64,000 nucleotides of DNA from Uliginosibacterium gangwonense DSM 18521 (GCF_000373965.1 NZ_KB892864.1:200170-264169), one strand, 5' to 3'; shown: positions 2,612-61,158, counted from the first letter of the stretch. Made by a program: numbers and translations. The notes: generated from the letters alone by a model not told the origin.

Positions 2612-2633
2612 GCTGAGCCTGCCAGCAGAGACG

Positions 2634-3467: not shown

Positions 3468-3562
3468 ATCAGCATCCGAAAATTGGTCTATTAATGCCTC
3501 ATCATGCCATACAGGCCACGATAATCAGGAAATTGCAGTCGCTTGCGCCCAAACCGACAGGT

Positions 3563-5764
3563 TCAGGCCCGCACAGCGGAGATCACCCCATCAATCTCGC
3601 CAATCTGTTGCAGCACACGCTGGGCCACGGTTCCGCCAGAGACTTCGATGGTAAAGCGCATATGCGCCCGCCCAGCCTTGGAGATGGTATTCACGCCCGT
3701 TACGTTGAGCTTGTCCTTGGTGAAGACATCGGAGATATCCCTCAGCAGGCCAGGGCGATCCATGGCTTCGACCATGATGTCGAGCGAGAACGCCTCAGGC
3801 CGCGCATCCTTGGCGGTGGCCAGATGCCCCCATTCGGCAGGCACGATCCGCTCCGGGTGGCGGTGAGCCAAATTCAGGAAACTCTTGCAATCTTCACGGT
3901 GGATCGATACGCCTCGGCCACGCGTCACAAACCCCTGGATAGTATCGGGCGGCACGGGCTTGCAGCAGCGGGCCAACTGGGTGAGCAAACGGCCCACGCC
4001 CACGACCAGCACCCGATCATCCTGATCAACGGCCTTGCGCCGCTCGCTGATCACCAGTTCTGGCGCAGGCGGAATCGGCACCACCGGCTGCAAGGCGTTG
4101 TGGATCTGGCGGCCACTCACATCTCCACGCCCCACGGCTAGGTAGAAGGTAGTGGTGTCCTTGAAGCCCAGCTGCGCGGCGAGATCTTCCTGGTTGGTCT
4201 GGGTCAGGCCGCTGCGTTGCAGCTCGCGGATCACAATGGCGCGACCCTGCGCGGCAGTCTCATCCTCTTCCTGTTGCACAAACCAGCGTCGCACCTTGGC
4301 GCGGGCGTTGGAAGTCACCAGATAACCCAGCTGCGGGTTGAGCCAGTCACGCGAAGGGCCGCCCTGCTTGGCAGAGATGATCTCGACTACCTGACCACTG
4401 ACCAGGGGGCGATCCAGCGGCAGCATCTGCCCATCCACCTTGGCGCCCCGGCACCGGTGGCCCAGATCGGTATGCAGGCGATAGGCAAAGTCGATGGCCG
4501 TCGCCCCGGTAGGCAGGTCGATCACCCGGCCCTGCGGCGTGGCGACATACACGGTGTCATCCAGTGCAGCCTGACGGGTGTGTTCTTCCCAGACGGAAGC
4601 ATCGGTGACTTCATCACGCCAGGACAGCAGTTGGCGCAGCAGCGAAATCTTTTCGTCGTAGGCGCCACCGCCCTGCTTGGCACCTTCCTTGTAGCGCCAG
4701 TGGGCGGCCACACCCAGCTCGGCGTGGCGGTGCATCTCGTAGGTGCGGATCTGCACCTCCATCGCCCGCCCGTCCGCCGCACGTACGGCGGTATGCAGGG
4801 ATTGGTAGTTGTTGCCCTTGGGTTTGAGGATGTAGTCGTCAAATTCCTTGGGAATCGGCTCCCACAGCTCATGCACAAGGCTCAGCACTGCATAGCAGTC
4901 GCGCACCTCATCAACCAGCACGCGCAAGGCCCGCACGTCATAGACCTGATCGAAGTCGACGTGTTTGTTGCGCATCTTGTTCCAGATGCTGTAGATGTGC
5001 TTGGGGCGGCCATAGACTTCGGCCTTTACGCCAATGGCAGCCACATCAAGCTTGAGGCGGGCGATGGAATCGGTAATAAAGGCTTCACGTTCCACCCGGC
5101 GCTCATCAAGCTGCTTGGCGATGCGCTTGTAGGTATCCGGCTCAAGGAAGCGGAAAGAGAGATCTTCCAGCTCCCACTTGAGTTGCCACACCCCCAGCCG
5201 GTTGGCCAGCGGGGCATACAGATCCATACTCTCGCGGGCGATATCGAGCGATACGCTCTCACGATTGGCCGTAAAGAAGCGCAGGGTCTGCACCCGCGAA
5301 GCCAGCCGCAGCAGAACCACGCGGATATCTTCAGCCAGCGCCAGCACCATCTTGCGCAGCACTTCGTTTTGCGAATGCAGGTCTGCCGCCGTTCCGTTGG
5401 AATGAGACACCATATGCAGGCGATTGAGCCGCCGCAAGCCTTCCACCAGCTTGGCCGCAAGCGGGCTGAAGCGCTCGGCAATACGTTCGCTGGCGTTCTC
5501 TTCGTATTCCGGCACCGCAAACAGCAAAGCGGCAATCCGGGCATCCAGATCAAGCTTGAGCGAGACGGCAATCAGCGAAATACCCAGGGCATGCTGCCAG
5601 GCCTCTTCCCCGCTGCCGAGCTGACGCCCAGCGTAAAGGGCCTGAGCCCATTCCACTGCCTGCTGCAAGGCAGGCAGCGCATCGGGGCCAAGACCGGCTG
5701 CAAGCAGCTCGGGAACCGGGGTGGCGCCATCTGTATTGGCGACAGAGTGTTGTACGGAAACCAT
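3563..5764 (-). CDS. relA: GTP pyrophosphokinase, (p)ppGpp synthetase RelA (RelA/SpoT family)
   Basis: 733 aa with a RelA/SpoT synthetase core (YQSLHT, RxKHxYSIWNKM-type motifs) and C-terminal TGS/ACT regions. The N-terminal domain lacks the HD dyad (LFAVPEY in place of HD), as in monofunctional RelA. Confidence 0.8.
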   Translation of the reverse strand: MVSVQHSVANTDGATPVPELLAAGLGPDALPALQQAVEWAQALYAGRQLGSGEEAWQHALGISLIAVSLKLDLDARIAALLFAVPEYEENASERIAERFSPLAAKLVEGLRRLNRLHMVSHSNGTAADLHSQNEVLRKMVLALAEDIRVVLLRLASRVQTLRFFTANRESVSLDIARESMDLYAPLANRLGVWQLKWELEDLSFRFLEPDTYKRIAKQLDERRVEREAFITDSIARLKLDVAAIGVKAEVYGRPKHIYSIWNKMRNKHVDFDQVYDVRALRVLVDEVRDCYAVLSLVHELWEPIPKEFDDYILKPKGNNYQSLHTAVRAADGRAMEVQIRTYEMHRHAELGVAAHWRYKEGAKQGGGAYDEKISLLRQLLSWRDEVTDASVWEEHTRQAALDDTVYVATPQGRVIDLPTGATAIDFAYRLHTDLGHRCRGAKVDGQMLPLDRPLVSGQVVEIISAKQGGPSRDWLNPQLGYLVTSNARAKVRRWFVQQEEDETAAQGRAIVIRELQRSGLTQTNQEDLAAQLGFKDTTTFYLAVGRGDVSGRQIHNALQPVVPIPPAPELVISERRKAVDQDDRVLVVGVGRLLTQLARCCKPVPPDTIQGFVTRGRGVSIHREDCKSFLNLAHRHPERIVPAEWGHLATAKDARPEAFSLDIMVEAMDRPGLLRDISDVFTKDKLNVTGVNTISKAGRAHMRFTIEVSGGTVAQRVLQQIGEIDGVISAVRA

Positions 5765-5891
5765 GCGTGCATTATCCCATACCGGGCGTTACGAAAATAT
5801 CTTGATTTGAATGCCCACAATCCAAAAAGGTTCAAAGTCTCTACCGCAGCCTGTGCAACTGCTTCGCCACAACCCAACACACATCGGTACA

Positions 5892-6824
5892 ATGGATTCT
5901 TTATCAATCAGGATTCCTCCTTCCATGCTGCGTTGGCTTCCGGCAACCGCCCGGGGCGTTGCTGCCTCGATCATCATCGGCTTGAACACCCTTCTGGTAT
6001 GCATATTCTTCATCCCGTTTGCGCTGGTGAAGCTGCTGATCCCAGTCCCGGCAATCCGCAAGCTGACAGACCATTGCCTGATCTGGCTCGCCAATGCCTG
6101 GGTCAGCGTCAACCACGGCTGGATGACTGCGGTGCAAAAACTGGATTGGCATGTCAGCGGCCTTGAGGACCTGAATCCGCGTGGCTGGTATCTGGTGAGT
6201 TGCAACCACCAGAGCTGGGCGGACATCGTGATCCTGCAGCGCGTCCTGCAAGGGCATATCCCCTTTCTCAAATTCTTCCTCAAGCGCGAGCTGATCTATG
6301 TTCCCGTCATCGGCTTCGCGTGGTGGGCGCTGGATTTCCCCTTCATGCGCCGAGGCGGCAAAACCCTGGCCACGGCTGCGGCAGACCTTGCCACAGCACG
6401 CAAATCCTGCGAAAAATTCCGCCATATCCCCACTTCGGTCATCAACTTTCTGGAAGGCACACGCTTTACGGCGGCCAAACATGCCACCCAGCATTCTCCC
6501 TACCAGCATTTGCTTAAGCCCAAGAGCGGGGGTGCCGCCATTGCGCTGGCTACGATGGGTGACCTGTTCAATGCCATGTTGGATGTGACCATTGTGTACC
6601 CCGGTGGCACCCCGACTTTCTGGCAGGTGATGTGTGGCCAAATGGGCAAGGTGGTAATCGAGGTCAAATCCATCCAGATTCCAGCCGAACACATCCAAGG
6701 TGCGGCCTCTGGTGACCCACGGGCACGGGCACTCATCCAGCGTTGGCTCAATGATTTGTGGAAAGAGAAGGATTCCCGTATCGGTGAGCTGCTTGGCAAG
6801 CCCGCCCAGAACCCAGAAGCCTGA
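5892..6824 (+). CDS. PlsC-family lysophospholipid/1-acyl-glycerol-3-phosphate acyltransferase (HX4D motif)
   Basis: The ORF track starts at 5811. The in-frame ATG at 5892 (MDSLSIRIPPSMLRW...) is the more plausible start because it precedes the TM segment. The acyltransferase motif CNHQSWADI and FLEGTR are present. Confidence 0.7.
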   Translation: MDSLSIRIPPSMLRWLPATARGVAASIIIGLNTLLVCIFFIPFALVKLLIPVPAIRKLTDHCLIWLANAWVSVNHGWMTAVQKLDWHVSGLEDLNPRGWYLVSCNHQSWADIVILQRVLQGHIPFLKFFLKRELIYVPVIGFAWWALDFPFMRRGGKTLATAAADLATARKSCEKFRHIPTSVINFLEGTRFTAAKHATQHSPYQHLLKPKSGGAAIALATMGDLFNAMLDVTIVYPGGTPTFWQVMCGQMGKVVIEVKSIQIPAEHIQGAASGDPRARALIQRWLNDLWKEKDSRIGELLGKPAQNPEA

Positions 6825-6876
6825 CCCTTTGGGCGCAGGGCTGCGCCTGCTGGCCCGGCCGAACGTTCTGGCCGGG

Positions 6877-7698
6877 TTGTCTTCAGCCCTGCTTGCTGTC
6901 CTATTTTCCGTCCTGTTTTCCGTCAACTCCCAGGCGCAAACGTCCCAGACACCCCCACTGCCGCGCACGCAGATCACCCGCCTGGAGCAGGCCTGCAATT
7001 TCCTGGCGGCGGAAAAGCCCACGGATTTCGTGCTTGAAAATGCCTGCGCTCGGCATCTGGAAACAATCGGCCAGATGCTCCGGCACAGTACATGGCGGGA
7101 TGAATGCGAGCGTAATATTCTGCCGGGCCTGGAGAATCTGGGCTCCTATTATGAGCAAACCCCTGGCAGCAGTGAAATCGGCGTAGACAAGCTGCTCTTC
7201 CTCCCTTTGGGGAGAGGGCATTTTCTGATCGCGCTGGCATGCAGCCAGGGCGCCTACAACACCGACTACCTGGTTTTCACTTACGAGGATAGGCCCCACC
7301 CCGCCCAGCCGAAATTATTGTGGTTCCCTGAAATCCAATACTCAGGAAATCACGTGCGGCTGCATTACACGGCAAGGCTCACGCTACGTGATTTCGACGC
7401 CAGAACGCACTCCCTATACCACTATGCCAAATATCTGGGTAATGGCTCAGGAGGTAACTACGCCGAATATGTGATTGATGCCAAAACTTTCATGCCCCGG
7501 CTCAAGGTCTGGATCAGCAAAGCAGATACAGACCACCAGGGCAATTATCAGTTCAAGCGCGGACAACGCCCACACGCCAAGGGCTGGCAAGCCTACCCAC
7601 ATCCGGCGCAAGGCAAGCTCGGCGCGATTGATCAACGCAGCAAGCAGCCCTTTTCAACTCACCCCAAAATCGAAAGCTTGCCAGACGTACCAGAATAG
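6877..7698 (+). CDS. hypothetical exported protein (Cys-containing, signal peptide ...LLAVLFSVLFSVNSQAQT)
   Basis: The ORF track's GTG start at 6700 lies inside the upstream acyltransferase gene. The first start after that gene's stop (6824) is TTG at 6877. A signal-peptide-like N-terminus follows. The start is uncertain and I did not recognise a family. Confidence 0.4.
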   Translation: MSSALLAVLFSVLFSVNSQAQTSQTPPLPRTQITRLEQACNFLAAEKPTDFVLENACARHLETIGQMLRHSTWRDECERNILPGLENLGSYYEQTPGSSEIGVDKLLFLPLGRGHFLIALACSQGAYNTDYLVFTYEDRPHPAQPKLLWFPEIQYSGNHVRLHYTARLTLRDFDARTHSLYHYAKYLGNGSGGNYAEYVIDAKTFMPRLKVWISKADTDHQGNYQFKRGQRPHAKGWQAYPHPAQGKLGAIDQRSKQPFSTHPKIESLPDVPE

Positions 7699-51262: not shown

Positions 51263-51624
51263 GGGGGCGACCTGGTTTCGACGGGGGTTGCGAAGCAGCT
51301 TGGTGCATACCGAGGCCCAGTCACCTCGTAAATAAGCTGGAAATTTATACTCGCCAACGACGAGCAATTCGCTCTGGCCGCTTAAGGCCTAAGCCGCTGC
51401 ACTGGTAGGTCTCTGGGCCAGGTGGGGCAACCCACAGCAGCGTCATTCACAGAGACTCGTGCCGTAACGGGTTACTTGTTACGGAGCTAAAACCAAGGTG
51501 ACTCGCCCCGCGTCGGCCTGCCGGTCGGCTAAGCGCAGGGTTAAATTAAAATAGAGCGGCTAAGTATGTAGATCCAGTTGTAGAGAACTTTCGGACGCGG
51601 GTTCGATTCCCGCCGCCTCCACCA
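51263..51624 (+). ncRNA. ssrA: tmRNA (SsrA), tag peptide ANDEQFALAA
   Basis: The 5' end is GGGGGCGACCTGGTTTCGACGGGGGTTGCGAAGCAG and the 3' end is GGACGCGGGTTCGATTCCCGCCGCCTCCACCA. The acceptor stem has a G3:U wobble pair. The tag reading frame resumes at 51353 as GCC AAC GAC GAG CAA TTC GCT CTG GCC GCT TAA. A tacaat -10 lies at 51240-51245. Confidence 0.92.
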
Positions 51625-51885: not shown

Positions 51886-52371
51886 ATGAGAGCTATCCCT
51901 GCTTGCGATTTCCATCTTGCCGTTTCCATGGATGATGTCGTCACTTGGCCGGACGATGGAAACGAGACTCCTATTCCAGAACAAAATTTACAGGCTTTGC
52001 TCAGTACTCTTGGTGTTTCGAAAAGTCTTACGGAGTTATACCGAACCTACTTCGAAGAAACCAAAATAGGGGCCGGTGATGTTTTTGTATTTCAGCCAGC
52101 TCCAGGCAGCAAGAATGTCTTTGCGATCGATATGTATCGTGACCTCACTGACCAAATGGACATCGTAACTTTCTCTGTCGGTTGTTCTGTAGAGATTGTA
52201 TCCATCGTCAGAGAGAAGCTACGAGCCTTCTTCGATGGCGCTTCGTGCCAAGTACATTACGAAGAAGCAAACCACTCTACTGGCCTCCACAGAATGCTCG
52301 ATGTAGCGAGCTATCCATTCACCATCGGGGAGTTTGGGTATAAACAAGCCATTCACTACGTGTATGGCTAA
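51886..52371 (+). CDS. hypothetical protein (low-GC orphan, first gene after ssrA)
   Basis: 161 aa ORF in AT-rich DNA. No family recognised. Confidence 0.4.
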   Translation: MRAIPACDFHLAVSMDDVVTWPDDGNETPIPEQNLQALLSTLGVSKSLTELYRTYFEETKIGAGDVFVFQPAPGSKNVFAIDMYRDLTDQMDIVTFSVGCSVEIVSIVREKLRAFFDGASCQVHYEEANHSTGLHRMLDVASYPFTIGEFGYKQAIHYVYG

Positions 52372-52751
52372 GCTCATCGAAACCCCAGCTTGACTGGCAC
52401 CCCATTTTTCAGTGCATAAAAACGCACAAAAACGCGTAAAAGTGCAAGTTTTTTCACATCCTGAAAAATGGCCTTCAGCCCAGCCACCGGGCGGCTTTGG
52501 CCTGGGTGCATGAGTGCATAAAAAGCGCCCCTTTTACCGGGCGGGCGTGGCGGGGGTACGACCGCGCGCGGAGGGCTAAAACGGCAGCCCGGCCCTCCCT
52601 GTCTTTGCCGCAAATCGGGGCGCCAAGGGGTGGCAATGGGCGCTGGAAACGAGAACGTGTAACGGACAGGCGCAAGGTCGCCTGCGGGGTGGCGCTCTCA
52701 AACGCCCATATAGAGACTTACAGGGGCATGGCCGCGCCGTGGCTTGGCACC

Positions 52752-52779
52752 AAGAAAAAGGCCCGCACATGGCGGGCCT
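52752..52779 (-). terminator. rho-independent terminator after the small HTH gene
   Basis: The minus strand reads GGCCCGCcatgtGCGGGCC followed by TTTTTCTT. Confidence 0.45.
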
Positions 52780-52802
52780 GAATGCCGGGCAACAGGGGGC
52801 AA

Positions 52803-53018
52803 TCAGATATCCACCGTGCGCCCCACCACCACCTTACCCAACTTGTGGAGTGCCTTTTCCAAGGCGGGCACCTTGGACTGATACCGTGGGTCAAGCGCAC
52901 GCTCCACCATCGTGTTTGTCCAACCTGTAGCCCGTGCCAGATCCACCTTGCGCCAGCCCTTCTCCACCATGGCATTGTGCAGAAAAACCTTAAGGGCAGC
53001 CATCACCGGCAACACCAC
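52803..53018 (-). CDS. small HTH DNA-binding protein (Cro/C1-XRE-like; possible phage repressor or antitoxin)
   Basis: 66-71 aa. The ORF track's start is a GTG at 53018, and an ATG lies 5 codons in. WRKVDLARATGWTNTMVERALD looks like an HTH. It is divergent from the three-gene operon. Confidence 0.4.
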   Translation of the reverse strand: MVLPVMAALKVFLHNAMVEKGWRKVDLARATGWTNTMVERALDPRYQSKVPALEKALHKLGKVVVGRTVDI

Positions 53019-53356
53019 GTAGTCCTTCCCTTACAGCTGCGACGGACTTATGCCGGCTAAGGAACTAGGGGGCTATTCTTCTAGATACTCCATTTGCAAA
53101 CTTGGCCGCTATGGCTTAGAAGATGGTATGGAGTCCCCTTGTGCAGCCACAATCACCATACTTAAGGTTGTGATCAATAATTTTGGAGCCGCCCGCGTTT
53201 TTCTGTAATCGGTCAGCAACTGACCCGACCACGGAGTAACATATTGCGGCTCAACCGCCTATAACCATGAAAACAACATGGAATCATATGAGTTCATGGC
53301 CCTATTTTTTTGTTGACTTATGATTAATTCGATCCATATGATATCAATAGTACAGG

Positions 53357-53722
53357 ATGGATTCTTTATCTTCGGAGTTGGCAACGGTGAACTCCGAAGC
53401 GCTTAAGCAGTTAATTGCTAGTTGTCGCCGTAAAGATCGGCGCACGCTTGGCTTTCCAAGGGATTGGAATCCAAGTCGCATAAGGCATCCCGAAATCAGA
53501 GATTTCTATTTCACGGAGGCAGGTGCATGGGAATTTATTGCAGACCAGCTTCAAGCCAACCATCCGTTCACGGAAATCGTCTTAGATAACCCCGCTGGAG
53601 CCTTAGCTTTGGTAATGGAGGTTAAAGTCACCCCGGACGACCCGCTTCTATATATCAAGCTCCAAATTGGAAAAGGAAACATGGCGATTGGACGAAGCTT
53701 TCATTACAGCGACCGTTATTAA
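53357..53722 (+). CDS. MqsR-family (RelE/ParE superfamily) toxin-like protein
   Basis: 121 aa, or 111 aa from the GTG at 53387, which has a GGAG RBS. The C-terminal half aligns to the E. coli MqsR fold (compare DFYKSMTTY...VYLKITVIHDVLIVSFKEK with DFYFTEAGAWEF...LLYIKLQIGKGNMAIGRSFHY). The position corresponding to MqsR K56 is Phe in this protein. The gene sits immediately upstream of an MqsA-like gene, the MqsR->MqsA order. Confidence 0.5.
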   Translation: MDSLSSELATVNSEALKQLIASCRRKDRRTLGFPRDWNPSRIRHPEIRDFYFTEAGAWEFIADQLQANHPFTEIVLDNPAGALALVMEVKVTPDDPLLYIKLQIGKGNMAIGRSFHYSDRY

Positions 53723-53737
53723 GGACTATGTTACTTC

Positions 53738-54316
53738 ATGAAAAATCAGATGGATAACATGCCAGGCCAGTCTTGCTTGGAATGCCCTTCATGTGGGGCA
53801 AGCAATATCTCGGCGACGAGCGAAGTTGAAAATTTTCAATATGGTGACAAGTACGATGCACCAACACTCTCTGTTTCGATTCGTGTTCATCACTGTGCAT
53901 CGTGCGGTTTCTCGTTCACTACCGAGGAAGCCAGTGAGTTAAAGCATGATGCAGTGTGCCGACACCTAGGAGTTATGACGCCAAATGAAGTGCGCAGTGT
54001 GCGAGAGCACTATGGGTTGAGCCAAGGTGAATTTTCTGAACTGTCAAAAATTGGCAAAGCATCTTTGGCGCGCTGGGAGAGCGGGGTGCTCATTCAAAAC
54101 CAAGCCAATGATAACCTTTTATTCCTACTGACTTTCTGCGATAACGTCACTCGTTTAAGAGAAAGGCGGCGAATTCAAACTGATCATTCAAATTCTTTGA
54201 CGAAAAATGTAGTGCCATTTCGTCCCAGGTTTAGAGCTCTTCCGCAAACTGACATAGATCGCATGCAGCGTGAAGCCGAGCGGTTTGAGTTGTTCCCTGA
54301 AGCAATGATTGGGTAA
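53738..54316 (+). CDS. MqsA-family antitoxin-like protein (YgiT-type Zn-ribbon + XRE HTH) with ~70-aa C-terminal extension
   Basis: 192 aa with CLECPSCG...HCASCGF, a four-Cys zinc ribbon. The HTH region PNEVRSVREHYGLSQGEFSELSKIGKASLARWESGVLIQNQANDNLLFLL aligns to E. coli MqsA PEFIVKVRKKLSLTQKEASEIFGGGVNAFSRYEKGNAQPHPSTIKLLRVL. A 15-nt gap separates it from the upstream gene, and its stop lies 2 nt before the next ATG. Confidence 0.75.
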   Translation: MKNQMDNMPGQSCLECPSCGASNISATSEVENFQYGDKYDAPTLSVSIRVHHCASCGFSFTTEEASELKHDAVCRHLGVMTPNEVRSVREHYGLSQGEFSELSKIGKASLARWESGVLIQNQANDNLLFLLTFCDNVTRLRERRRIQTDHSNSLTKNVVPFRPRFRALPQTDIDRMQREAERFELFPEAMIG

Positions 54317-54318
54317 AT

Positions 54319-56169
54319 ATGTACGTTGTTACGTTTTATTCCTTTAAGGGCGGCGTAGGCAGGTCCATGTCGCTTGTTAATGTCGGCATTCAACTTGCGC
54401 AAGCAGGTCGTAGGGTTTTATTGGTGGATTTTGATCTTGAAGCGCCTGGTTTGCCCACTTTCAATTTATCCAAACCGGAGGGCGACGCTTCTGGGGTCGT
54501 TGAGTACGTAACACAGTACATAACCACTGGAGAATCTCCTGATGTAGCGAAGTACATATATAAATCAGAACAGTTTGAACGTGGTGGCCTTTGGGTAATG
54601 CCGGCAGGACTTCAAAACAGTACATATTCACAACGGCTCAACTCAATTGATTGGCGAAAGCTTTATGGGGAGCAATCGGGCTATCTTTTTTTCGAAGACT
54701 TGAAGGTTCAATGGAAAAATACGCTTGCTCCTGACTATGTTCTCATTGACTCAAGGACAGGACACAGTGATGTGGAAGGAGTATGTACACGACAACTGCC
54801 AGATGCAGTCTGTCTTCTGTTCTTCCCAAATGAGCAAAACCTCCAAGGGTTAAAACGGATTGTTTCAAATATCCGGTCTTATAGAATAGATTCAACCACA
54901 AAGCCTATAAGCCTTCATTTTGCCGTTTCTAATGTTCCTGATCTCGATGACGAGGATCATATTCTTAGTAGCACATTACAACGTTTTAGCGAAGAATTAG
55001 GATACATAAATCTTTCGTCTGAGATACATCATTACAACAGCTTGTCACTGCTTACCCAAGAAATATTTTCCTTAAACCGCCCCAATAGTCGATTAACAAC
55101 AGAGTATAGAAAACTAACAACCGCCATTCGAAGTCGTAACAATGAGGATAGAGATGCTGTACTAGCATTTTTAAAGGATGCTCACCGTGATATTTCAGAC
55201 ACACTAAACTCAATTGGTCCAAGGGAGTTATTGAAGCGAATAAACCTGATTCAAGATAATTTCGGCCAAGACGGTGAAGTATGCTATTTCCTAGCAAGAC
55301 TTCAGGAGCAAATCGGCAGTAGCAAAGATGCTTTAAGTCTATTGTCGTCCGAGGCCGTACAGAATGGTTATGCCACGGGTTCGATGTTTGCTGCTCGCGC
55401 AGGCATAAATCACAAACTCGGGAACATAGACGACGCAATTGAAGATCTTAGGTCGATGCTTGATTCCACTAATATTGACCTAGAGTCATTTCTTGAAACT
55501 GCTCCTATCATAGATCAGGTAGCCCCTGATCTTTATAGTTCTTTGCCAACGTCAAAGGCATTCTTGTCGCTAACGGCCAAGGATAGATTGTTCTTCGTTA
55601 CTCAGTCTGAGGGAAATAAGAACCAACTTCGAGCCAATGCAGAGATTTTGAAGCACCTTAGAAAGTATCCAGAGGACGCTATAGATACAGAATCTGGAGT
55701 TGCTTCTGACAGCTATCTTGCGCATGAGCTTGCTCTGGCGAGCATTGGTGCGGGTGATTTTGCGGCAGCTGCTGATCTACTAAGATCAGAAGGAGTGCCA
55801 GAAGAGACTCTTGCTATAGCTGATGCATTTAATCTTGCTATGGCGACGTGGGGAATGGATCGCCAACCAAGTATCGAGCATTTTAAGACTGTAGCTCAAA
55901 TTGAGGATCGAGAAGGTACGCTCAGCAATGATCCGAGCATTAACTATCTTCAGTGCATGGCTATAGCATATACAATTCTCGGCAACGTCGAAAAAGCAAA
56001 ATCTTGCATTTTAAGAGCACGAGAGTCTATGAGGAGGATTCCTCAGAGAGTCTTCTCAGCATGGAGTTACTCAAAGGTTGGTCCCAAAGAGTTTTTCTCC
56101 CATCTGGATCAGATTGATGCCATGCTCGAGGGGAAGAATGTTGTTCCAGTGTTCATGGAAGTGAAATAG
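54319..56169 (+). CDS. ParA/MinD-like P-loop ATPase (deviant Walker A KGGVGRS) fused to a C-terminal TPR-like alpha-helical domain; function unknown
   Basis: 616 aa. The N-terminal ~250 aa carry the deviant Walker A SFKGGVGRSMS (Arg replaces the P-loop Lys), a switch-I-like RRVLLVDFDLEAPGL, and the Walker B DYVLIDSRTGHSD. The C-terminal ~350 aa are helical repeats. GC is about 42-45% against a host value of about 62%. Confidence 0.6.
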   Translation: MYVVTFYSFKGGVGRSMSLVNVGIQLAQAGRRVLLVDFDLEAPGLPTFNLSKPEGDASGVVEYVTQYITTGESPDVAKYIYKSEQFERGGLWVMPAGLQNSTYSQRLNSIDWRKLYGEQSGYLFFEDLKVQWKNTLAPDYVLIDSRTGHSDVEGVCTRQLPDAVCLLFFPNEQNLQGLKRIVSNIRSYRIDSTTKPISLHFAVSNVPDLDDEDHILSSTLQRFSEELGYINLSSEIHHYNSLSLLTQEIFSLNRPNSRLTTEYRKLTTAIRSRNNEDRDAVLAFLKDAHRDISDTLNSIGPRELLKRINLIQDNFGQDGEVCYFLARLQEQIGSSKDALSLLSSEAVQNGYATGSMFAARAGINHKLGNIDDAIEDLRSMLDSTNIDLESFLETAPIIDQVAPDLYSSLPTSKAFLSLTAKDRLFFVTQSEGNKNQLRANAEILKHLRKYPEDAIDTESGVASDSYLAHELALASIGAGDFAAAADLLRSEGVPEETLAIADAFNLAMATWGMDRQPSIEHFKTVAQIEDREGTLSNDPSINYLQCMAIAYTILGNVEKAKSCILRARESMRRIPQRVFSAWSYSKVGPKEFFSHLDQIDAMLEGKNVVPVFMEVK

Positions 56170-56454
56170 TTGTTTAGGGGCATACGCTCTTGCTGAGTGA
56201 TTATAAAATTCAAAATATCCTAAAAAGCCTGAACAACCACCAAAGCTGAGAATTGTCCCCCTTTCTTGCAGAGGGCGGAAGGCTAGACAGGCGATTCCAA
56301 TGACCATCATCGCCTGTGGATAATCGTCTCGGTTGATTTAGTTGATTTCCGGTCTAGCCGACCGCTTTCAATTTTGCGTGCCTCCCCGTTATGGCTGTTT
56401 CGGTTGTCTCCACCGACCGAATCGGGTCGATCTCGCCCCTCAACACCCCATCAT

Positions 56455-56485
56455 CAAAAAGCCGCCCTCGGGCGGCTTTGTCATT
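56455..56485. terminator. bidirectional terminator between the ParA-TPR gene and the convergent dam gene
   Basis: aaaaaGCCGCCCtcgGGCGGCtttgtcattt. Confidence 0.55.
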
Positions 56486-56504: not shown

Positions 56505-57296
56505 CTAGAAGTTGGTAATGATCAGCTCTTTTGCTTTGGTCATGCTGTTCCCTCCCCCACCTACGCTGTAGTTGATCGCCACCTCTCGGAAGGTCAGACC
56601 CTTGAATGCCTTTCGCATGGCGGGAATGTCATTGACCGAGATTACCATCCGGCCCTTCATCGTTCGGGCCCGTTCGGCCATGCGGTCGTATTCAGCCAAG
56701 TCAAAGGGCACCCCGTAACCTTCCGTGCCATAGTAGGGTGGATCACAGTACACCAGCGTGTGGGCGCGGTCGTAGCGTTCAATGCAATCCGCCCAGGGCA
56801 GATTCTCGATATAGGTATGGCTCAAGCGCAGATGGGCGGAGGATAGATCCTCTTCCAGTCGCAGCAGATTAAGCCTGGGGGCCGTTGTCGTGGCCGTCCC
56901 GAAGCTGCGCCCTTCTACCTTGCCACCAAACCCCAATTTCTGGATGTAGAAGAAGCGCGCCGCCCGCTGGATATCGGTCAGGGTTTCTTCGGGGGTCGCC
57001 TGCATCCATTTGTAGATCTGGCGACTGCTCAGTGCCCATTTGAACTGACGGATCAGTTCTTCCAGATGGTGGCGCACCACCCGGTACAGATTGACCAGTT
57101 CGCCATTGATATCGTTGATCACTTCCACCTTGCTGGCATCCTTCATGAAGAACAGGGCCGCAGCCCCGCAGAAGGGTTCCACATAGCAGGTGTGTTCTGG
57201 AAACAGAGGCAGGATGTGTTTGGCCAGCCGTCGTTTGCCGCCGATCCAAGGGATGATCGGGCTGCTGTTCATGTTTGCATTGATTTGTTTTTTCAT
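56505..57296 (-). CDS. dam: DNA adenine (N6) methyltransferase, Dam-like, phage-borne
   Basis: 263 aa with an N-terminal PIIPWIGGKRRL and the catalytic DPPY (VYCDPPYYG). It lies 21 bp downstream of the portal gene on the same strand. Confidence 0.85.
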   Translation of the reverse strand: MKKQINANMNSSPIIPWIGGKRRLAKHILPLFPEHTCYVEPFCGAAALFFMKDASKVEVINDINGELVNLYRVVRHHLEELIRQFKWALSSRQIYKWMQATPEETLTDIQRAARFFYIQKLGFGGKVEGRSFGTATTTAPRLNLLRLEEDLSSAHLRLSHTYIENLPWADCIERYDRAHTLVYCDPPYYGTEGYGVPFDLAEYDRMAERARTMKGRMVISVNDIPAMRKAFKGLTFREVAINYSVGGGGNSMTKAKELIITNF

Positions 57297-57317: not shown

Positions 57318-58370
57318 TTATGGTGTTGCATTGATGGCCAAGGCATAAGGCGTGAAGCTCACGACCTCCTCCCCCAGCCAATCATTGATTTCAAGCATGC
57401 GGGATTGCAGCGGGGCCACTTCATTGGCGGCAAACACGGCGGCGGCCTGGGCGGCATCGCCAAATCCCCCGGTGTTGTGCGGGATGATGCCTAGCAGTTG
57501 CGGCGGTACGCGGTGGGCGGCCAGTTGGTCATCCCGTGTCACGTTCTTGATGTGCAGGAATTCGTCTTTGGCGGCCACCTCGCTGACTGGCAGTAGTTGC
57601 AGCCCGTCTTTCTTGCCGCCTGGGGCGTACATGAACAGGTTCCTGAAGTTGCCCGGCCCCTTGGAGTTGCGTAGGGCATCTCTCAAGTTGTCGACATCTT
57701 TCTGGTTATGCGCGGGGTCGGTCATGTAGAAGATGAACCCGGCGTGGCTTCCGTTGAGGTAATACTTGCGCCTAAAAAGTGTGGCCGATTCGTTGAGCAA
57801 TACACTACTCATGGCCGCGAGGTATTCCGGCAAACCATAAACCTCCTGGTTGATATCCGGCTCCATGAGGTGAAACACTTCCCCAGGGGCGAACTCATGA
57901 TCCAGTTGGCCCGCGCGCAGGAAGTAGTAGGTCTGCAGATCCAGCCCACGCCGGGTGTATTTGGCCAAGCTCGTCTTGAGTTGCAGCGTGCCACCCAGGC
58001 GATTACTGACTCGCTCCATGTAGGCATTACCAAAGGTCAGGTAATCCAGCACAAAGCGGCTGAACTCTGCCCGGCTCAAGAGTTTGTGCGGTTGAAACGT
58101 GCTGACAAGGATATTGCGCTTCACGTACATGGGGCTGGCGTGATGCACCGTGGCCCGGAAAACCTGGGCCAGTGCATGCATGGAAATGGGCGGCTCATAC
58201 CATTTGCCATTGCCGACGCATTCCAGATAATCAAACAGTTCGCGCCGATCCAGCACGGGGAGCGGATCGCCAAAGCTGAAGGCGCCCCACTCGCCAGAAG
58301 ATAGCGGGCGTGAGTCCGGCAGGCCATTGGTGCTCAGGTGTTCAGTCTTGTTTCGTGTCTTGCGGCTCAT
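57318..58370 (-). CDS. P2-like phage portal protein (gpQ)
   Basis: 350 aa, the gpQ-type portal size. It sits immediately downstream of the terminase ATPase gene and its stop overlaps the dam start region. Confidence 0.8.
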   Translation of the reverse strand: MSRKTRNKTEHLSTNGLPDSRPLSSGEWGAFSFGDPLPVLDRRELFDYLECVGNGKWYEPPISMHALAQVFRATVHHASPMYVKRNILVSTFQPHKLLSRAEFSRFVLDYLTFGNAYMERVSNRLGGTLQLKTSLAKYTRRGLDLQTYYFLRAGQLDHEFAPGEVFHLMEPDINQEVYGLPEYLAAMSSVLLNESATLFRRKYYLNGSHAGFIFYMTDPAHNQKDVDNLRDALRNSKGPGNFRNLFMYAPGGKKDGLQLLPVSEVAAKDEFLHIKNVTRDDQLAAHRVPPQLLGIIPHNTGGFGDAAQAAAVFAANEVAPLQSRMLEINDWLGEEVVSFTPYALAINATP

Positions 58371-60193
58371 CCAAAAATCTCCATAAATCCGGTGTTGGTG
58401 GTCGTGGCCCCTTCAAGGGGTTCGTTCAGTAGTGCATGCAGGCAGGCCCAGGCCAGATCGGCGTGGCTCGTCTCTTCACTGCGCCCGGCTTCAAAGGTGA
58501 TTTGTCGCCCGCTGGCGGTGGTGGTCTTCTTGATGGCCATGAAGGCGGCGGCCAAGTCTGTCCAGCCCGCGTCAAACTCAAGGCGCCCGCGCTCAATGAT
58601 GTTCAAAGCCTTCAACACCATCCTGACTTTCAGGTCTGGCGAGTAGTTGAGACCCACGGCCATGGGGAAGAACTGGCGCACCAACTGATAGACGCCCTGC
58701 CCCAGGCCGGTGGTATCAATGGCGATGTGCTGCACGTTGTAGGTGTGGGTCAGCATCTCGATGCGCTTGGCCTGTTCCTCAAAATCCAGCCCCTGGAACT
58801 GCATCCGGTCGAGCACGCGAAACTTGCCCCCAGGGGCCATCGGGGGCGCGACCACGACCAGCCCGGCAGAATCCCCCGTGTGGCTGGGGTCGTAACCGAT
58901 CCAGACCGGGCGATCGGCAAAGGGCCGGGCATGGAAGGGGCGGAAGTCTTCCCACACCTCCCAGGAATCCACCATGCAGCGTTGCAGCAGCGAGAGCGGA
59001 AAAACGCTTTTGCCATCGTCAATGAACTGGCACATGAAAAGCTGCAGGAACTCTTCCGGCGAGTACTCCAAGCGCAATTGCTGGATATCGAAAAGATCAC
59101 AACCGCTGGCCGCAGCATCCAGAATCGTGACAATCTGGCGCCATTGGCCATCCTCGCAATGCCGCCCACCGGCCAAGGCTTCATGGCGGACATCCAGCTC
59201 GATGTGCTCAGACTTGGGCCGCCCCTTGTTGAAAAGTGTCCCCGCCCAAAACGGGTACGCCTCATGCGTGAGAGTCGACGGTGTAGAAAAGTAGGTCTGG
59301 CGCCAGCGCTTCTGGCTGGCCATGCCGCTGGCCACCTTGCGAAGATCGCGGAATTTCGGAATCCAGAAATACTCATCAAGGTACAAATTGCCGTGGTAGC
59401 TCTGCGCCGTGCGGCTATTCGTGCCCAGGAAGATCAATTCCGCCTCATTGGGCAAGAGGATTTTTTCGCCGCGCAAGTCCACGTCAGCGGTCGTGCGGGC
59501 GAACTCCTGAATGTAGCTTTTGAACTGGTGCGCCTGGGCTTTGCTGGCAGACAGGAAGATTTGATTGCGCCCGGTCTTCAGGGCATCAATCAGCGCCTCA
59601 CGCGCAAAGTAGAAAGTTGCGCCGATCTGGCGAGACTTCAACAGATTGCGGATGCGCTCCTGCTGCCCAGCCCTGTACCAATGCTTTTGGTATCCAAACA
59701 GGCCATCCATGAAGGCGTCTTCCATCCTCCGCTGTTGTTCTTCGCTGATCGCATTGCGCTCGGGCGGCTTGCGTGTGCTGCCCTTATTGCGTTCGGCAAT
59801 CGCCGGGTTCAAGTCGCCTTCTCGACCTGTGCCCTGATAGCGTTTGATGCGGGCTTGGCACTCCAAGAGTCGGCCCAGGGCATCGATCTCCTTGTAATCT
59901 GAATTGGATTTTGCGTCCTTGGCAATCAGGAGATTCAAGCGGGCTTCCGTGACATATTCAATGCGGGTAAGCGCGTCGGTTTCATCCCACTTGCCACGAC
60001 GCTTCCAACTGTGCACAGTAGAAGCGCGCACCTGAAGACGCCGGGCAATCTCTGAAACCCGGTAGCCCTGGTAGTACAGGTCACGCGCCCGTGCCTGGAG
60101 CGTGTCATCAGTCGCTGCGGCCTGGGCCATGTCAGGAGTTGCAGCAGCAGCGGCATGGTGATCACTGAAGGGGGAAGTATTGGTCTTATCCAT
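58367..60193 (-). CDS. P2-like terminase large (ATPase) subunit (gpP)
   Basis: About 608 aa from ATG 60193 (MDKTNTSPF...). It has an N-terminal HTH (YYQGYRVSEIARRLQVRASTVHSWKRRGKWDE) and a terminase ATPase/nuclease body. The ORF track's 60352 start extends into the divergent gpO gene. Confidence 0.8.
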   Translation of the reverse strand: MDKTNTSPFSDHHAAAAATPDMAQAAATDDTLQARARDLYYQGYRVSEIARRLQVRASTVHSWKRRGKWDETDALTRIEYVTEARLNLLIAKDAKSNSDYKEIDALGRLLECQARIKRYQGTGREGDLNPAIAERNKGSTRKPPERNAISEEQQRRMEDAFMDGLFGYQKHWYRAGQQERIRNLLKSRQIGATFYFAREALIDALKTGRNQIFLSASKAQAHQFKSYIQEFARTTADVDLRGEKILLPNEAELIFLGTNSRTAQSYHGNLYLDEYFWIPKFRDLRKVASGMASQKRWRQTYFSTPSTLTHEAYPFWAGTLFNKGRPKSEHIELDVRHEALAGGRHCEDGQWRQIVTILDAAASGCDLFDIQQLRLEYSPEEFLQLFMCQFIDDGKSVFPLSLLQRCMVDSWEVWEDFRPFHARPFADRPVWIGYDPSHTGDSAGLVVVAPPMAPGGKFRVLDRMQFQGLDFEEQAKRIEMLTHTYNVQHIAIDTTGLGQGVYQLVRQFFPMAVGLNYSPDLKVRMVLKALNIIERGRLEFDAGWTDLAAAFMAIKKTTTASGRQITFEAGRSEETSHADLAWACLHALLNEPLEGATTTNTGFMEIFG

Positions 60194-60248
60194 CGCCCCA
60201 ATGTGCCTGTCTCGCCGCCCCTGTACCATCAATGCAAAACGTATAACG

Positions 60249-60264
60249 CCTGTTTTACAACAGG
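60249..60264. promoter_or_regulatory. perfect palindrome CCTGTTttacAACAGG in the P/O divergent late-promoter region (candidate Ogr/Delta-type activator site)
   Basis: A 16-bp dyad centred about 80 bp upstream of the gpO start. P2-family late promoters carry TGT-N-ACA dyads bound by zinc-finger activators. This is inference. Confidence 0.3.
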
Positions 60265-60336
60265 GTTTCATTGAGGCAAAAGCCTTGCTGGCCGACACTG
60301 TGTCCATCGCAAACATCACGCACACAGGACACCGAC

Positions 60337-61158
60337 ATGGCCGGGCAAGCAAAGAAGCAATCCAAGTATTTCCGTATCGCCACCGAAGGGGCCACCACCG
60401 ATGGGCGCACGATTGAGCGCGCCTGGATCGAGCAGATGGCCAAGAACTACAACCCGCAAACGTATGGCGCCCGTGTGAATCTGGAACACATCAAGGGGGT
60501 GATGCCACTGCCCGGCTCCCCCTTTGGTGCCTATGGCGATGTGCTGGCCTTGAGTACGGAAGAAGCGGACGGCAAGTTGCGTCTGCTGGCGCAAATCTCC
60601 CCCACGGATGATCTGGTCACACTGAATAAGGCGCGCCAGAAGGTGTATACCTCCTGCGAGATCAACACGAACTTTGCCGAAACCGGGGAAGCCTATCTGG
60701 TGGGGCTGGCCGTGACCGACAACCCGGCAAGCCTGGGGACTGAAATGCTGCAATTCTCGGCTCAAGCAACAGTCAATCCGCTGGCCGTCCGTAAAACCCA
60801 CCCGCATAACCTCTTTAGCTCTGCCGCTGAAACCGTGATGGAGTTTGAAGACGTCACCACGATTCCCGGTCTGGTGGAGCGCATCAAGACAATGTTTGCC
60901 CGGCGCGAACAAGGGGATGACGCCCGCTTTGCCGATGTGCACGGCGCGGTGGAAACCATTGCCACCCAGGTGGTGGAAGTGGAAACCAGGCTTTCTCAAT
61001 GCGGGGCCGGGGTGGCCAAGGTCGAAGTGCTTGCCGCCGCCCATGAAAAGCTCGCTCAGGAGTTTGCCGCGCTCAAGGTGCAACTCTCAGGCCAGCAAGG
61101 CAGCCCTGAACGTCCGCACGCCACCGGTGGCACGGGTGCAATTCAGACCGATTGCTGA
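60337..61158 (+). CDS. P2-like capsid scaffolding protein (gpO)
   Basis: The start is at ATG 60337 (MAGQAKKQSKYFRIATEGATTDGRTIE). It is about 274 aa and occupies the gpO position between P and N. Confidence 0.8.
   Translation: MAGQAKKQSKYFRIATEGATTDGRTIERAWIEQMAKNYNPQTYGARVNLEHIKGVMPLPGSPFGAYGDVLALSTEEADGKLRLLAQISPTDDLVTLNKARQKVYTSCEINTNFAETGEAYLVGLAVTDNPASLGTEMLQFSAQATVNPLAVRKTHPHNLFSSAAETVMEFEDVTTIPGLVERIKTMFARREQGDDARFADVHGAVETIATQVVEVETRLSQCGAGVAKVEVLAAAHEKLAQEFAALKVQLSGQQGSPERPHATGGTGAIQTDC

What the first reader, a model, noticed from the sequence alone, without database searches (positions are those of the whole stretch)
53357..56169. Low-GC three-gene operon (MqsR-like / extended MqsA-like / ParA-MinD-TPR ATPase) in the cargo region of a P2-like prophage - candidate undescribed defence or toxin module
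Three tightly coupled genes: the gaps are 15 nt and 2 nt, all on one strand, and a terminator follows immediately. Their GC is about 42-47% in a genome of about 62%. They sit between tmRNA and the portal/terminase genes of a P2-like prophage. That interval is the position where P2-family phages carry exchangeable anti-phage cargo such as old, tin or PARIS. Genes 1 and 2 resemble an MqsR/MqsA type II toxin-antitoxin pair. Gene 3 is a 616-aa ParA/MinD-fold ATPase fused to a TPR-like domain. I cannot match this architecture to any described defence family. A TA-like sensor/regulator pair coupled to a large NTPase effector is a recurring logic in abortive-infection systems.
Basis: partly seen in the sequence, partly recalled or inferred. 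Interest (0 to 1): 0.85.

Follow-up and report, generated by a model that had tools for sequence, protein, structure and literature searches.

The report
Three-gene toxin–antitoxin–ATPase cassette in prophage
A foreign, low-GC three-gene operon in the cargo slot of a P2-like prophage encodes an MqsR-fold RNase toxin, an MqsA antitoxin with an extra conserved tail, and an unusual MinD/ParA-type ATPase fused to a helical repeat domain. The same trio recurs unchanged in at least 500 bacterial species, and I found no description of it in the searchable literature.

Summary
Three co-directional genes lie at 53357-56169 with gaps of 15 and 2 nt. Their GC is 44.5% against 57.6% for the window. They sit between the tmRNA gene and the Dam/portal/terminase genes of a P2-like prophage.

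- **Gene 2** is an MqsA-family antitoxin by sequence, with an extra 60-residue tail.
- **Gene 3** is a "KGGVGR-motif variant" MinD/ParA ATPase (Walker A Lys replaced by Arg) joined to a fast-evolving all-helical C-domain.

All 81 genomic homologues of gene 3 that I examined carry genes 1 and 2 in the same order, across about ten phyla. No fourth gene recurs. A palindrome, ATCATATGAT, sits in 69 of 75 promoters, about 1000-fold above background.

The family is mostly chromosomal and rare in phages: 3 of 2.9 million viral contigs and 0 of 50,697 sequenced phages.

My best reading is an autoregulated tripartite toxin-antitoxin module. The ATPase-repeat protein would act as sensor or guardian of the antitoxin tail, like a TAC system but with a different third protein. 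A defence role is plausible but unproven. I rate it a new variant of a known kind.

The parts
53040..56400 (.). Low-GC block (44.6% GC) holding the promoter, the three genes and the 3' untranslated stretch. This is horizontally acquired cargo.
53283..53292 (.). Operator-like palindrome ATCATATGAG, one mismatch from the family consensus ATCATATGAT. It is the only such site in the 64-kb window.
   Evidence: the consensus with at most 1 mismatch occurs upstream of gene 1 in 69 of 75 homologous loci. That is 7.3 per kb against 0.007 per kb elsewhere.
53313..53342 (+). Sigma-70-like promoter TTGACT-18-TATGAT (10 of 12 matches). A degenerate second palindrome copy, tCCATATGAT (53333-53342), overlaps the -10 hexamer.
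   Evidence: a consensus match; function is inferred
53357..53722 (+). Gene 1: a 121-aa MqsR-fold (RelE/BECR superfamily) putative mRNA endonuclease toxin. An alternative GTG start at 53387 gives 111 aa. Family-invariant residues are Y99-x-K101 (53651-53659) and R113-S-F-H116 (53693-53704).
53370..53399 (+). Perfect 10-bp hairpin. It encloses the GGAG Shine-Dalgarno sequence and the alternative GTG start of gene 1, and could damp toxin translation.
   Evidence: dG -20.8 kcal/mol, z = -2.0; weak evidence
53738..54130 (+). Gene 2, residues 1-131: the MqsA-family core. It has a zinc ribbon (C16, C19, C53, C56) and an XRE-type HTH.
54131..54316 (+). Gene 2, residues 132-192: a C-terminal extension absent from the MqsA family models. 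A variable linker is followed by the conserved motifs F165-R-x-L168 (54230-54241) and F183-x-L185-R/H (54284-54295).
   Evidence: Family models end at residue 131.
54319..55134 (+). Gene 3, residues 1-272: a MinD/ParA-fold ATPase of the KGGVGR variant. The P-loop K10-G-G-V-G-R15-S is at 54346-54366. D37, D39 and D144 are invariant.
55150..56127 (+). Gene 3, residues 278-603: an all-alpha repeat (TPR-like) domain. It is twice as variable as the ATPase domain, with conserved patches at residues 504-512, 541-550 and 578-587.
56458..56479 (.). Strong bidirectional hairpin terminator, shared with the convergent Dam gene. A weaker terminator-like hairpin lies at 56350-56364.
51263..51624 (+). Context: the tmRNA gene, the probable attachment site of the prophage.
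   Evidence: The layout matches phage RSA1.
56505..60352 (-). Context: Dam methylase, P2-type portal (gpQ) and large terminase (gpP) of the prophage.

Best explanation
The cassette is a self-contained, horizontally mobile, autoregulated tripartite toxin-antitoxin module. This prophage carries it as cargo.

**Shown**
- Gene 2 is an MqsA-family zinc-ribbon plus HTH protein.
- Gene 1 has the MqsR/RelE fold, with invariant Tyr-x-Lys and Arg-Ser-Phe-His motifs on its last two strands. That is where MqsR carries Y81 and K96.
- Gene 3 is a MinD/ParA-fold nucleotide-binding protein. Its P-loop lysine is always arginine, and its other nucleotide and Mg motifs are invariant. It is fused to a fast-evolving helical repeat domain.
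- The three genes are inseparable across phyla.
- A conserved palindrome marks the promoter.

**Inferred**
1. The antitoxin's zinc-ribbon domain neutralises the RNase, as in MqsRA. Its HTH binds ATCATATGAT and represses the operon.
2. The antitoxin's extra C-terminal tail carries conserved aromatic and arginine motifs. This tail is the handle through which the ATPase-repeat protein holds or stabilises the antitoxin. A SecB-like chaperone holds the ChAD tail in TAC systems in the same way.
3. A signal then acts on gene 3. The likeliest signal is a phage or other foreign protein captured by the variable repeat domain. A change in nucleotide state is the alternative. Either would switch the ATP-dependent dimer.
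4. The tail is released, the antitoxin is lost or displaced, and the RNase shuts down translation. The outcome is abortive infection or growth arrest.
For: **Gene identities**
- MqsA membership of gene 2.
- Invariant candidate catalytic residues in gene 1.
- KGGVGR ATPase membership and invariant K10, R15, D37, D39 and D144 in gene 3.
- MinD/ParA fold of gene 3.

**Linkage**
- Toxin-antitoxin-third-gene order in 81 of 81 genomic loci. The same order holds on plasmids and viral contigs.
- No recurrent fourth gene.

**Regulation and tail**
- The palindrome is about 1000-fold enriched at the promoters.
- The tail with conserved F-R-x-L and F-x-L-R motifs lies beyond the MqsA model.
- The C-domain entropy is 2.04 bits against 1.07 bits for the ATPase domain.

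**Precedents**
- KGGVGR ATPases recur beside other toxic effectors: a HEPN-like protein in PDC-M28 and TIR fusions.
- In TAC systems a third protein guards an aromatic antitoxin tail, and a phage protein competes for it (bioRxiv 10.1101/2024.02.24.581848; PMC5105189).

**Location**
- The cassette sits in the hypervariable, defence-rich slot next to the portal of P2-like phages (PMC9122126).
Against: - No experiment shows toxicity, neutralisation, an interaction between the tail and gene 3, or phage resistance.
- Gene 1 has no sequence-level link to MqsR: no Pfam hit, and hhalign probability 0.4%. MqsR K96 is a His in gene 1.
- The third protein is unrelated to SecB, so the TAC analogy rests only on architecture.
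- The tail could instead bind the toxin or DNA.
- The Lys-to-Arg P-loop may abolish hydrolysis. Kaur et al. 2020 call such MinD/ParA domains inactive.
- Immediate neighbours in 81 genomes are mostly housekeeping genes, with only a handful of defence genes.
- The cassette is nearly absent from phages.
- The same slot in phages RSA1 and RSY1 carries T6SS cargo.
Confidence: 0.5

Rival explanations
1. The cassette is a plain addiction or stress TA module with no immune role. Gene 3 is merely an accessory regulator of the MqsA-like repressor. It would act as a co-repressor or anti-repressor, much as the MinD-like FleN tunes FleQ. It would set the toxin:antitoxin balance or respond to the cell's nucleotide state.
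For: - The cassette is scattered in chromosomes among housekeeping genes, as classical TA modules are.
- It is present on plasmids, next to repA on a 23-kb Massilia plasmid.
- It has a conserved operator.
Against: - The fast-evolving repeat domain fits a conflict or sensor role better.
- So does the recurrence of KGGVGR ATPases beside HEPN and TIR effectors and next to restriction genes.
- Here the cassette sits in a phage cargo hotspot.
Confidence: 0.25
2. The cassette is a partition or positioning system with post-segregational killing. Gene 3 would be a ParA-type motor. Gene 2 would be the centromere-binding adaptor, with its Arg-containing tail stimulating the ATPase. The ATCATATGAT sites would be the centromere and gene 1 the killer. 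The delta-omega-epsilon-zeta genes of pSM19035 give a precedent.
For: - Gene 3 has the MinD/ParA fold. ParA, Soj and pSM19035 delta are among the best matches.
- The upstream sites are palindromic.
- The tail carries a conserved arginine.
- The cassette occurs on some plasmids.
Against: - The Walker A lysine is invariantly arginine.
- A 340-residue repeat domain is not a ParA feature.
- There are only one or two palindromes, at the promoter, and no centromere-like array.
- At least 500 copies are mostly chromosomal, with no link to replication genes.
- No ParB is present.
Confidence: 0.08
3. Gene 3 is itself the effector. It would be a catalytically dead MinD/ParA mimic that poisons cell division or chromosome segregation. 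The MqsRA-like pair would act only as its transcriptional controller or as a second warhead.
For: Kaur et al. 2020 list 'inactive MinD/ParA-like' domains among the effector domains of ternary conflict systems. Gene 3 has a variant P-loop.
Against: - The nucleotide and Mg motifs are under strict purifying selection. That argues for a working nucleotide switch rather than a dead mimic.
- Gene 1 keeps an invariant RNase-like active-site constellation.
- In PDC-M28 and the TIR fusions, the same ATPase accompanies a separate obvious effector.
Confidence: 0.1

Closest known systems
MqsR/MqsA type II toxin-antitoxin system (E. coli ygiUT)
   Same: - The gene order is toxin first.
- The antitoxin has an N-terminal zinc ribbon (2 x CxxC) and a C-terminal XRE HTH. 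It scores above the TIGR03830 and PF15731 cut-offs.
- The toxin's best structural match is MqsR.
- There is a palindromic site at the promoter.
   Different: - The toxin is a separate sequence family of 490 clusters at 50% identity. It has no Pfam hit and no profile link to MqsR. A His stands where MqsR has K96.
- The antitoxin has a 60-residue conserved tail.
- The operator sequence differs from the E. coli mqsRA palindrome (that sequence is from my own knowledge).
- An obligatory third gene is present.
Toxin-antitoxin-chaperone (TAC) systems: Mtb HigBA-SecB, E. coli HigBAC, CmdTAC
   Same: - The order is T-A-third gene.
- The antitoxin carries a C-terminal extension with conserved aromatic residues.
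- TAC systems include MqsRA-type cores and act as phage sensors (PMC5105189; 10.1101/2024.02.24.581848; PMC11618068).
   Different: The third protein here is a 616-aa MinD/ParA-fold nucleotide-binding protein with a helical repeat domain. It is not an ATP-independent SecB-like holdase, and I found no homology between them.
PADLOC candidate system PDC-M28 and other KGGVGR-ATPase modules
   Same: - It uses the same variant ATPase domain (PDC-M28B 6e-31; NF047398).
- The ATPase gene is translationally coupled to a small upstream gene encoding a predicted RNase-type protein (HEPN-like PDC-M28A).
- It is found on plasmids next to integrases and restriction genes.
   Different: - PDC-M28A and PDC-M28C do not match genes 1 and 2.
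- PDC-M28 uses an ORC/Cdc6-like third protein instead of TPR-like repeats and has no antitoxin.
- PDC systems are candidates, not validated systems (my own knowledge of PADLOC-DB).
STAND/Avs-type NTPase sensors (effector - NTPase - TPR sensor)
   Same: The logic is the same. A nucleotide switch is joined to a rapidly diverging repeat sensor and controls a toxic effector.
   Different: - The NTPase belongs to a different class (SIMIBI MinD/ParA rather than NACHT or NB-ARC).
- The effector is a separate protein held by an antitoxin.
- This is an analogy only.
Type Ib ParA partition systems and pSM19035 delta-omega-epsilon-zeta
   Same: - The ATPase has a MinD/ParA fold.
- It is paired with a small DNA-binding protein bearing a flexible tail.
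- It is genetically linked to a TA pair.
   Different: - The Walker A Lys is replaced by Arg.
- There is an extra repeat domain.
- There is no centromere array and no association with a replicon.

Membership tests
MqsA antitoxin family (TIGR03830 / PF15731) | Score above the curated cut-off, with a CxxC...CxxC zinc ribbon followed by an XRE-type HTH | tested here: met
   - TIGR03830: 70.8 bits against a cut-off of 61.8.
- PF15731: 36.4 bits against a cut-off of 30.
- Both cover residues 15-131.
- C16, C19, C53 and C56 are conserved in 82 sequences.
MqsR toxin family (PF15723) | Sequence membership in the Pfam family | tested here: not met
   - None of the 42 family members gives a Pfam hit.
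- hhalign against E. coli MqsR gives probability 0.4%.
- A profile search of 1.84 billion proteins finds only a closed family of 490 clusters.
MqsR toxin family (PF15723) | MqsR/RelE (BECR) fold | tested here: met
MqsR toxin family (PF15723) | Catalytic residues equivalent to MqsR K56, Q68, Y81 and K96 (residue list from my own knowledge) | tested here: inconclusive
   Invariant Y99-x-K101 and S114-F115-H116 line up by sequence pattern with MqsR Y81-L-K83 and S94-F95-K96 on the last two strands. No residue-level structural alignment was available, and K96 is a His.
Type II toxin-antitoxin system (general) | The toxin is toxic and its cognate antitoxin neutralises it | not testable with these tools
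   This needs expression assays.
Type II toxin-antitoxin system (general) | Autoregulated operon with an operator at the promoter | tested here: inconclusive
   The conserved palindrome ATCATATGAT lies upstream of gene 1 in 69 of 75 loci, about 1000-fold enriched. In the window it sits beside and over the promoter-like site. Binding was not tested.
TAC (toxin-antitoxin-chaperone) | The third gene encodes a SecB-like chaperone | tested here: not met
   Gene 3 has a MinD/ParA fold plus helical repeats. No SecB family hit appears.
TAC (toxin-antitoxin-chaperone) | The antitoxin has a C-terminal chaperone-addiction extension with conserved aromatic residues | tested here: inconclusive
   An extension (residues 132-192) with conserved F165 and F183 motifs exists in all cassette antitoxins. 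Its dependence on gene 3 is untested.
KGGVGR-motif variant AAA ATPase (NCBIfam NF047398) | Score above the curated cut-off, with the KGGVGR P-loop | tested here: met
   177.6 bits against a cut-off of 90, over residues 2-185. K10, G11, G12, G14 and R15 are invariant in 24 homologues.
ParA/MinD partition or division ATPases | Deviant Walker A KGGxxK[ST], a cognate ParB, MinE or centromere partner, and scores above the family cut-offs | tested here: not met
   - The P-loop Lys is Arg.
- The minD, ParA_partition and RepA models score 18-24 bits against cut-offs of 180-350.
- No ParB lies in the flanks.
- The fold itself is shared.
PADLOC PDC-M28 candidate system | Components A, B and C are all present | tested here: not met
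   Only the ATPase domain matches PDC-M28B, at 6e-31 over profile positions 131-348 of 438. Genes 1 and 2 match neither A nor C. A true PDC-M28 locus (L166) matches all three at 1e-126 to 1e-173.
Cargo of the P2-like phage hotspot next to gpQ | Lies between the prophage end or cos region and the portal gene, in a slot that varies among related phages | tested here: met
   - The layout is tmRNA - cargo - Dam - Q - P / O - N - M - L.
- In 67 related viral contigs the slot holds 138 protein clusters, 94 of them singletons, with many PADLOC hits.
- Phage RSA1 has the layout int - attP - cos - cargo - Q.
- The hotspot is defined in PMC9122126.

The most novel reading that the evidence does not exclude
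KGGVGR-variant MinD/ParA proteins may be a so-far unrecognised class of nucleotide-switch sensors in prokaryotic immunity, playing the role that STAND NTPases play elsewhere. They would couple interchangeable sensor domains (TPR-like repeats, ORC/Cdc6-like) to interchangeable effectors (MqsR-fold RNase, HEPN, TIR). In this cassette the switch would work by a new 'guard the antitoxin tail' mechanism. That would turn an ordinary MqsRA pair into a phage-triggered abortive-infection system.
Probability: 0.3. Interest if true: 0.8.

Novelty: new variant of a known kind. Interest (0 to 1): 0.6.

Why it matters
If the model is right, it adds a second, unrelated solution to the TAC principle, in which a third protein guards an antitoxin tail and doubles as the infection sensor. 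It would also give a function to a widespread, unstudied branch of MinD/ParA ATPases with an arginine P-loop.

The cassette is compact at 2.8 kb and carries its own promoter and operator. It occurs in at least 500 species across about ten phyla. Its predictions are clear: two tail motifs, Y99 and H116 in the toxin, K10, R15 and D39 in the ATPase, and the ATCATATGAT operator. It could therefore be tested directly.

It also shows that gene 1 defines a new MqsR-fold toxin family that current Pfam, NCBIfam, PHROG and PADLOC models miss.

Tried and rejected
- **Gene 1 by sequence.** Pfam, NCBIfam, PHROGs and PADLOC gave nothing. A profile search of PDB sequences gave only noise. hhalign against MqsR was not significant.
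- **Structure prediction with locus-derived sequences.** I redid it with database homologues.
- **Literature.** 'KGGVGR', 'PDC-M28' and combinations of MqsA, ParA, TPR and tripartite returned no description of this cassette. Two P2-hotspot surveys do not mention MqsA.
- **A fourth conserved gene.** None was found; the commonest flank family is in 5 of 81 loci.
- **Prophage att repeat.** I looked for a direct repeat of the tmRNA 3' end to delimit the prophage. None lies inside the window.
- **BY-kinase reading of gene 3.** Rejected, although some databases use that name. The tyrosine-kinase models score 13-18 bits against cut-offs of 108-314.
- **Co-folding.** Co-folding the antitoxin tail with gene 3 could not be run with the tools allowed.
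Full report
**1. What is in the sequence**

Three co-directional ORFs occupy 53357-53722 (gene 1, 121 aa), 53738-54316 (gene 2, 192 aa) and 54319-56169 (gene 3, 616 aa). The gaps are 15 and 2 nt.

Their GC is 47.3, 46.5 and 43.4%. The cassette averages 44.5% and the window 57.6%. GC3 is 38-47%, against 70-80% in the adjacent phage and host genes. The low-GC block runs from about 53040 to 56400.

A sigma-70-like promoter, TTGACT-18-TATGAT, lies at 53313-53342. The first terminator-like hairpin lies 181 nt after the stop and is weak (56350-56364). The strong one (56458-56479) lies 289 nt downstream and is shared with the convergent Dam gene.

**2. Context**

The tmRNA gene is at 51263-51624. To the right of the cassette lie a Dam-family methylase, a P2-type portal (phrog_68, 2.5e-158) and the large terminase on the minus strand. 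Scaffold, major capsid, small terminase and head adaptor follow on the plus strand. This is the P2 Q-P/O-N-M-L arrangement. The organism is Uliginosibacterium gangwonense, from the source name of the 99%-identical database protein.

The nearest sequenced phages are Ralstonia phages RSA1 and RSY1, with 66-71% portal identity. RSA1 is organised int - attP - ORF51 - cos - cargo - Q - P - O. That explains why the attachment site lies next to the cargo here and why no integrase is seen on this side.

I examined 67 related viral contigs with 63-73% portal identity. The 3.5 kb beyond the portal holds 304 ORFs in 138 clusters, 94 of them singletons. They match many PADLOC families, including PDC-M03, PDC-M11, AriA, PtuA, GajA, AbiL and methylases. 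This agrees with the published P2 hotspot between gpA and gpQ (PMC9122126). However, RSA1 and RSY1 carry T6SS-type cargo in the same slot: PAAR, DUF4123 and immunity 52 in one, VgrG in the other. The position indicates 'exchangeable accessory cargo', not specifically anti-phage function.

**3. The three proteins**

*Gene 2.* It passes the curated thresholds of the MqsA family over residues 15-131 (TIGR03830 70.8 against 61.8 bits; PF15731 36.4 against 30). The four zinc-ribbon cysteines are conserved. Residues 132-192 lie beyond the family models. A variable linker is followed by two conserved short motifs, F165-R-x-L168 and F183-x-L185-R/H.

Public gene calls start gene 3 at M17 and so lose the P-loop. 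Conservation of residues 1-16 shows that the 616-aa start is correct.

**4. Is the trio a unit?**

Gene 3 has more than 4,400 database relatives at E ≤ 1e-5. The best 120 are nearly all 590-640 aa.

I examined 81 of those loci. They come from Acidobacteriota, Binatia, Planctomycetota, Spirochaetia, Latescibacterota, Gemmatimonadota, Myxococcota, Omnitrophota and Alpha-, Beta- and Gammaproteobacteria. In 78 of them, genes 1, 2 and 3 are adjacent in that order by single-sequence search. Profile search then finds gene 1 upstream of the ATPase gene in all the apparent exceptions. Two of those copies are disrupted, and one locus has a 1.4-kb insertion between genes 2 and 3.

Plasmid copies (Massilia, Rhizobium) carry all three genes. 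So do two of the three viral-contig copies; the third shows genes 2 and 3 by single-sequence search and gene 1 by profile search.

No other gene family recurs in the flanks; the maximum is 5 of 81 loci. The nearest neighbours are mostly metabolic or housekeeping genes. The set also contains two proteins matching type I methylase models, two matching pAgo, three matching mad2, two matching PDC-S03 and two transposases.

The cassette is absent from 50,697 sequenced phages and from 80 related P2-like viral contigs. It is present in only 3 of 2.9 million IMG/VR contigs. It is thus a self-contained, patchily distributed, mostly chromosomal module. Its presence in a prophage slot is the exception.

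**5. A conserved cis element**

The palindrome ATCATATGAT, allowing one mismatch, occurs in the 220 nt upstream of gene 1 in 69 of 75 loci. That is 120 sites, or 7.3 per kb. The rest of the same loci have 7 sites in 972 kb, or 0.007 per kb.

In the window the only such site is ATCATATGAG at 53283-53292, 21 nt upstream of the -35 hexamer. A degenerate second copy overlaps the -10 hexamer. With the strongly conserved HTH of gene 2, this is best read as the operator of an autoregulated operon. That reading is an inference.

**6. Mechanism**

*Shown:* domain identities, folds, invariant residues, obligate linkage and order, the conserved operator-like site, the conserved antitoxin tail, and the variable repeat domain.

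*Inferred:* gene 1 is an mRNA endonuclease toxin. Gene 2's zinc-ribbon domain neutralises it, as in MqsRA, and its HTH represses the promoter. NetFlax shows that the zinc-binding domain is the neutralising element even in MqsA-Panacea fusions (PMC10440598). The extra tail is the contact for gene 3.

The closest functional precedent is the TAC class. There a third protein (SecB-like) binds an aromatic C-terminal ChAD element of HigA-, MqsA- or HicB-type antitoxins. A phage protein competes for that site and unleashes the toxin (PMC5105189; 10.1101/2024.02.24.581848; PMC11618068).

Here the third protein is unrelated: a nucleotide-dependent dimerising switch with a diversifying repeat domain. 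The same variant ATPase sits beside a HEPN-like protein and an ORC/Cdc6-like ATPase in the PADLOC candidate PDC-M28. It is also fused to TIR domains. Kaur et al. 2020 noted 'inactive MinD/ParA-like' domains in ternary conflict systems (PMC7159879).

This recurrence next to toxic effectors argues that the ATPase is the regulator or sensor and the RNase is the effector. I put about 0.8 on the TA core, about 0.45 on the coupling between the tail and gene 3, and about 0.4 on an anti-phage role.

**7. Rivals**

- A plain addiction or stress TA module in which gene 3 modulates the repressor in a FleN-like way (0.25).
- A ParA-type partition system with post-segregational killing (0.08). The arginine P-loop, the repeat domain, the lack of a centromere array and the chromosomal scatter all count against it.
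- Gene 3 as a dead-mimic effector of cell division (0.1). Strict conservation of its nucleotide and Mg motifs, and an intact RNase-like site in gene 1, count against it.

**8. Known or new?**

The parts are known kinds: an MqsA antitoxin, a RelE-superfamily fold and an NCBIfam-modelled ATPase domain. The tripartite logic has a precedent in TAC.

I found no description of this trio, of the gene 1 family, of the antitoxin tail or of the operator in the searchable literature. No defence-system model covers it. I rate it a new variant of a known kind, with interest of about 0.6. It is widespread, compact and directly testable, but no phenotype is known. Candidate systems of this type are common, so the surprise to a specialist would be moderate.

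Noticed in passing
window 51886-52371 (+): A 161-aa ORF lies directly after the tmRNA gene. Its GC is 46.5%, and it has no hit in Pfam, NCBIfam, PHROGs or PADLOC. It is a second foreign-looking cargo gene of unknown function in the same slot.
   Followed up: partly
window 52400-53020; ORF 52803-53018 (-): A GC-rich stretch (60%) lies between the two low-GC blocks. It carries a 71-aa HTH ORF with weak HicB-like and regulator hits (phrog_497, 4.6e-05). It may be a remnant regulator.
   Followed up: partly
window 52483-52499 and 56464-56480: Two nearly identical GC-rich hairpin terminators (GCCaCCGGGCGGCTTTG and GCCcTCGGGCGGCTTTG) bracket the HTH ORF and the cassette, 3981 nt apart. They could be recombination joints or simply similar terminators.
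   Followed up: no
window 53370-53399: A perfect 10-bp hairpin encloses a GGAG Shine-Dalgarno sequence and the alternative GTG start (53387) of the toxin gene (dG -20.8 kcal/mol, z -2.0). It may damp toxin translation.
   Followed up: partly
window 54319-54366 and 53357-53386: Public gene calls start gene 3 at Met17 (600 aa), which deletes the KGGVGR P-loop. They start gene 1 at GTG 53387 (111 aa). Conservation shows the longer gene 3 start is right. Truncated calls may hide this ATPase family from domain searches, since several database homologues show no Pfam domain.
   Followed up: yes
window 56505-57296 (-): A Dam-family N6-adenine methylase lies directly downstream of the portal gene. Only 1 of 80 related viral contigs (L094) has it in this position. 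A further 39 carry a distant Dam 3-8 kb away.
   Followed up: partly
L171/L172 (Ralstonia phages RSA1 1-2917; RSY1 546-7582): The nearest sequenced relatives carry type VI secretion cargo in the same cos-to-portal slot. RSA1 has PAAR, DUF4123 and an immunity 52 protein. RSY1 has VgrG and DUF3274. The slot therefore holds inter-bacterial weapons as well as anti-phage genes.
   Followed up: partly
L165 3989-6193; L166 3072-6402; L167 3183-6295: Other KGGVGR-type ATPase modules occur on plasmids. One is a TIR fusion (Sinorhizobium). One is a complete PDC-M28 locus next to an integrase (Enterobacter). One pairs a HEPN-like PDC-M28A with a fused ATPase and ORC/Cdc6-like protein, next to hsdR (Nostoc).
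   Followed up: partly
L080 4627-6001; L026 about 4096-5352; L044: Some cassette copies are disrupted. L080 has a 1.4-kb insertion between the antitoxin and ATPase genes. L026 and L044 have split or partial toxin genes. These suggest occasional decay or IS insertion.
   Followed up: no
window 58367-60352 (-): The large-terminase ORF as listed starts at a far-upstream TTG (661 aa), but family matches begin near residue 80. The real start is probably downstream.
   Followed up: no
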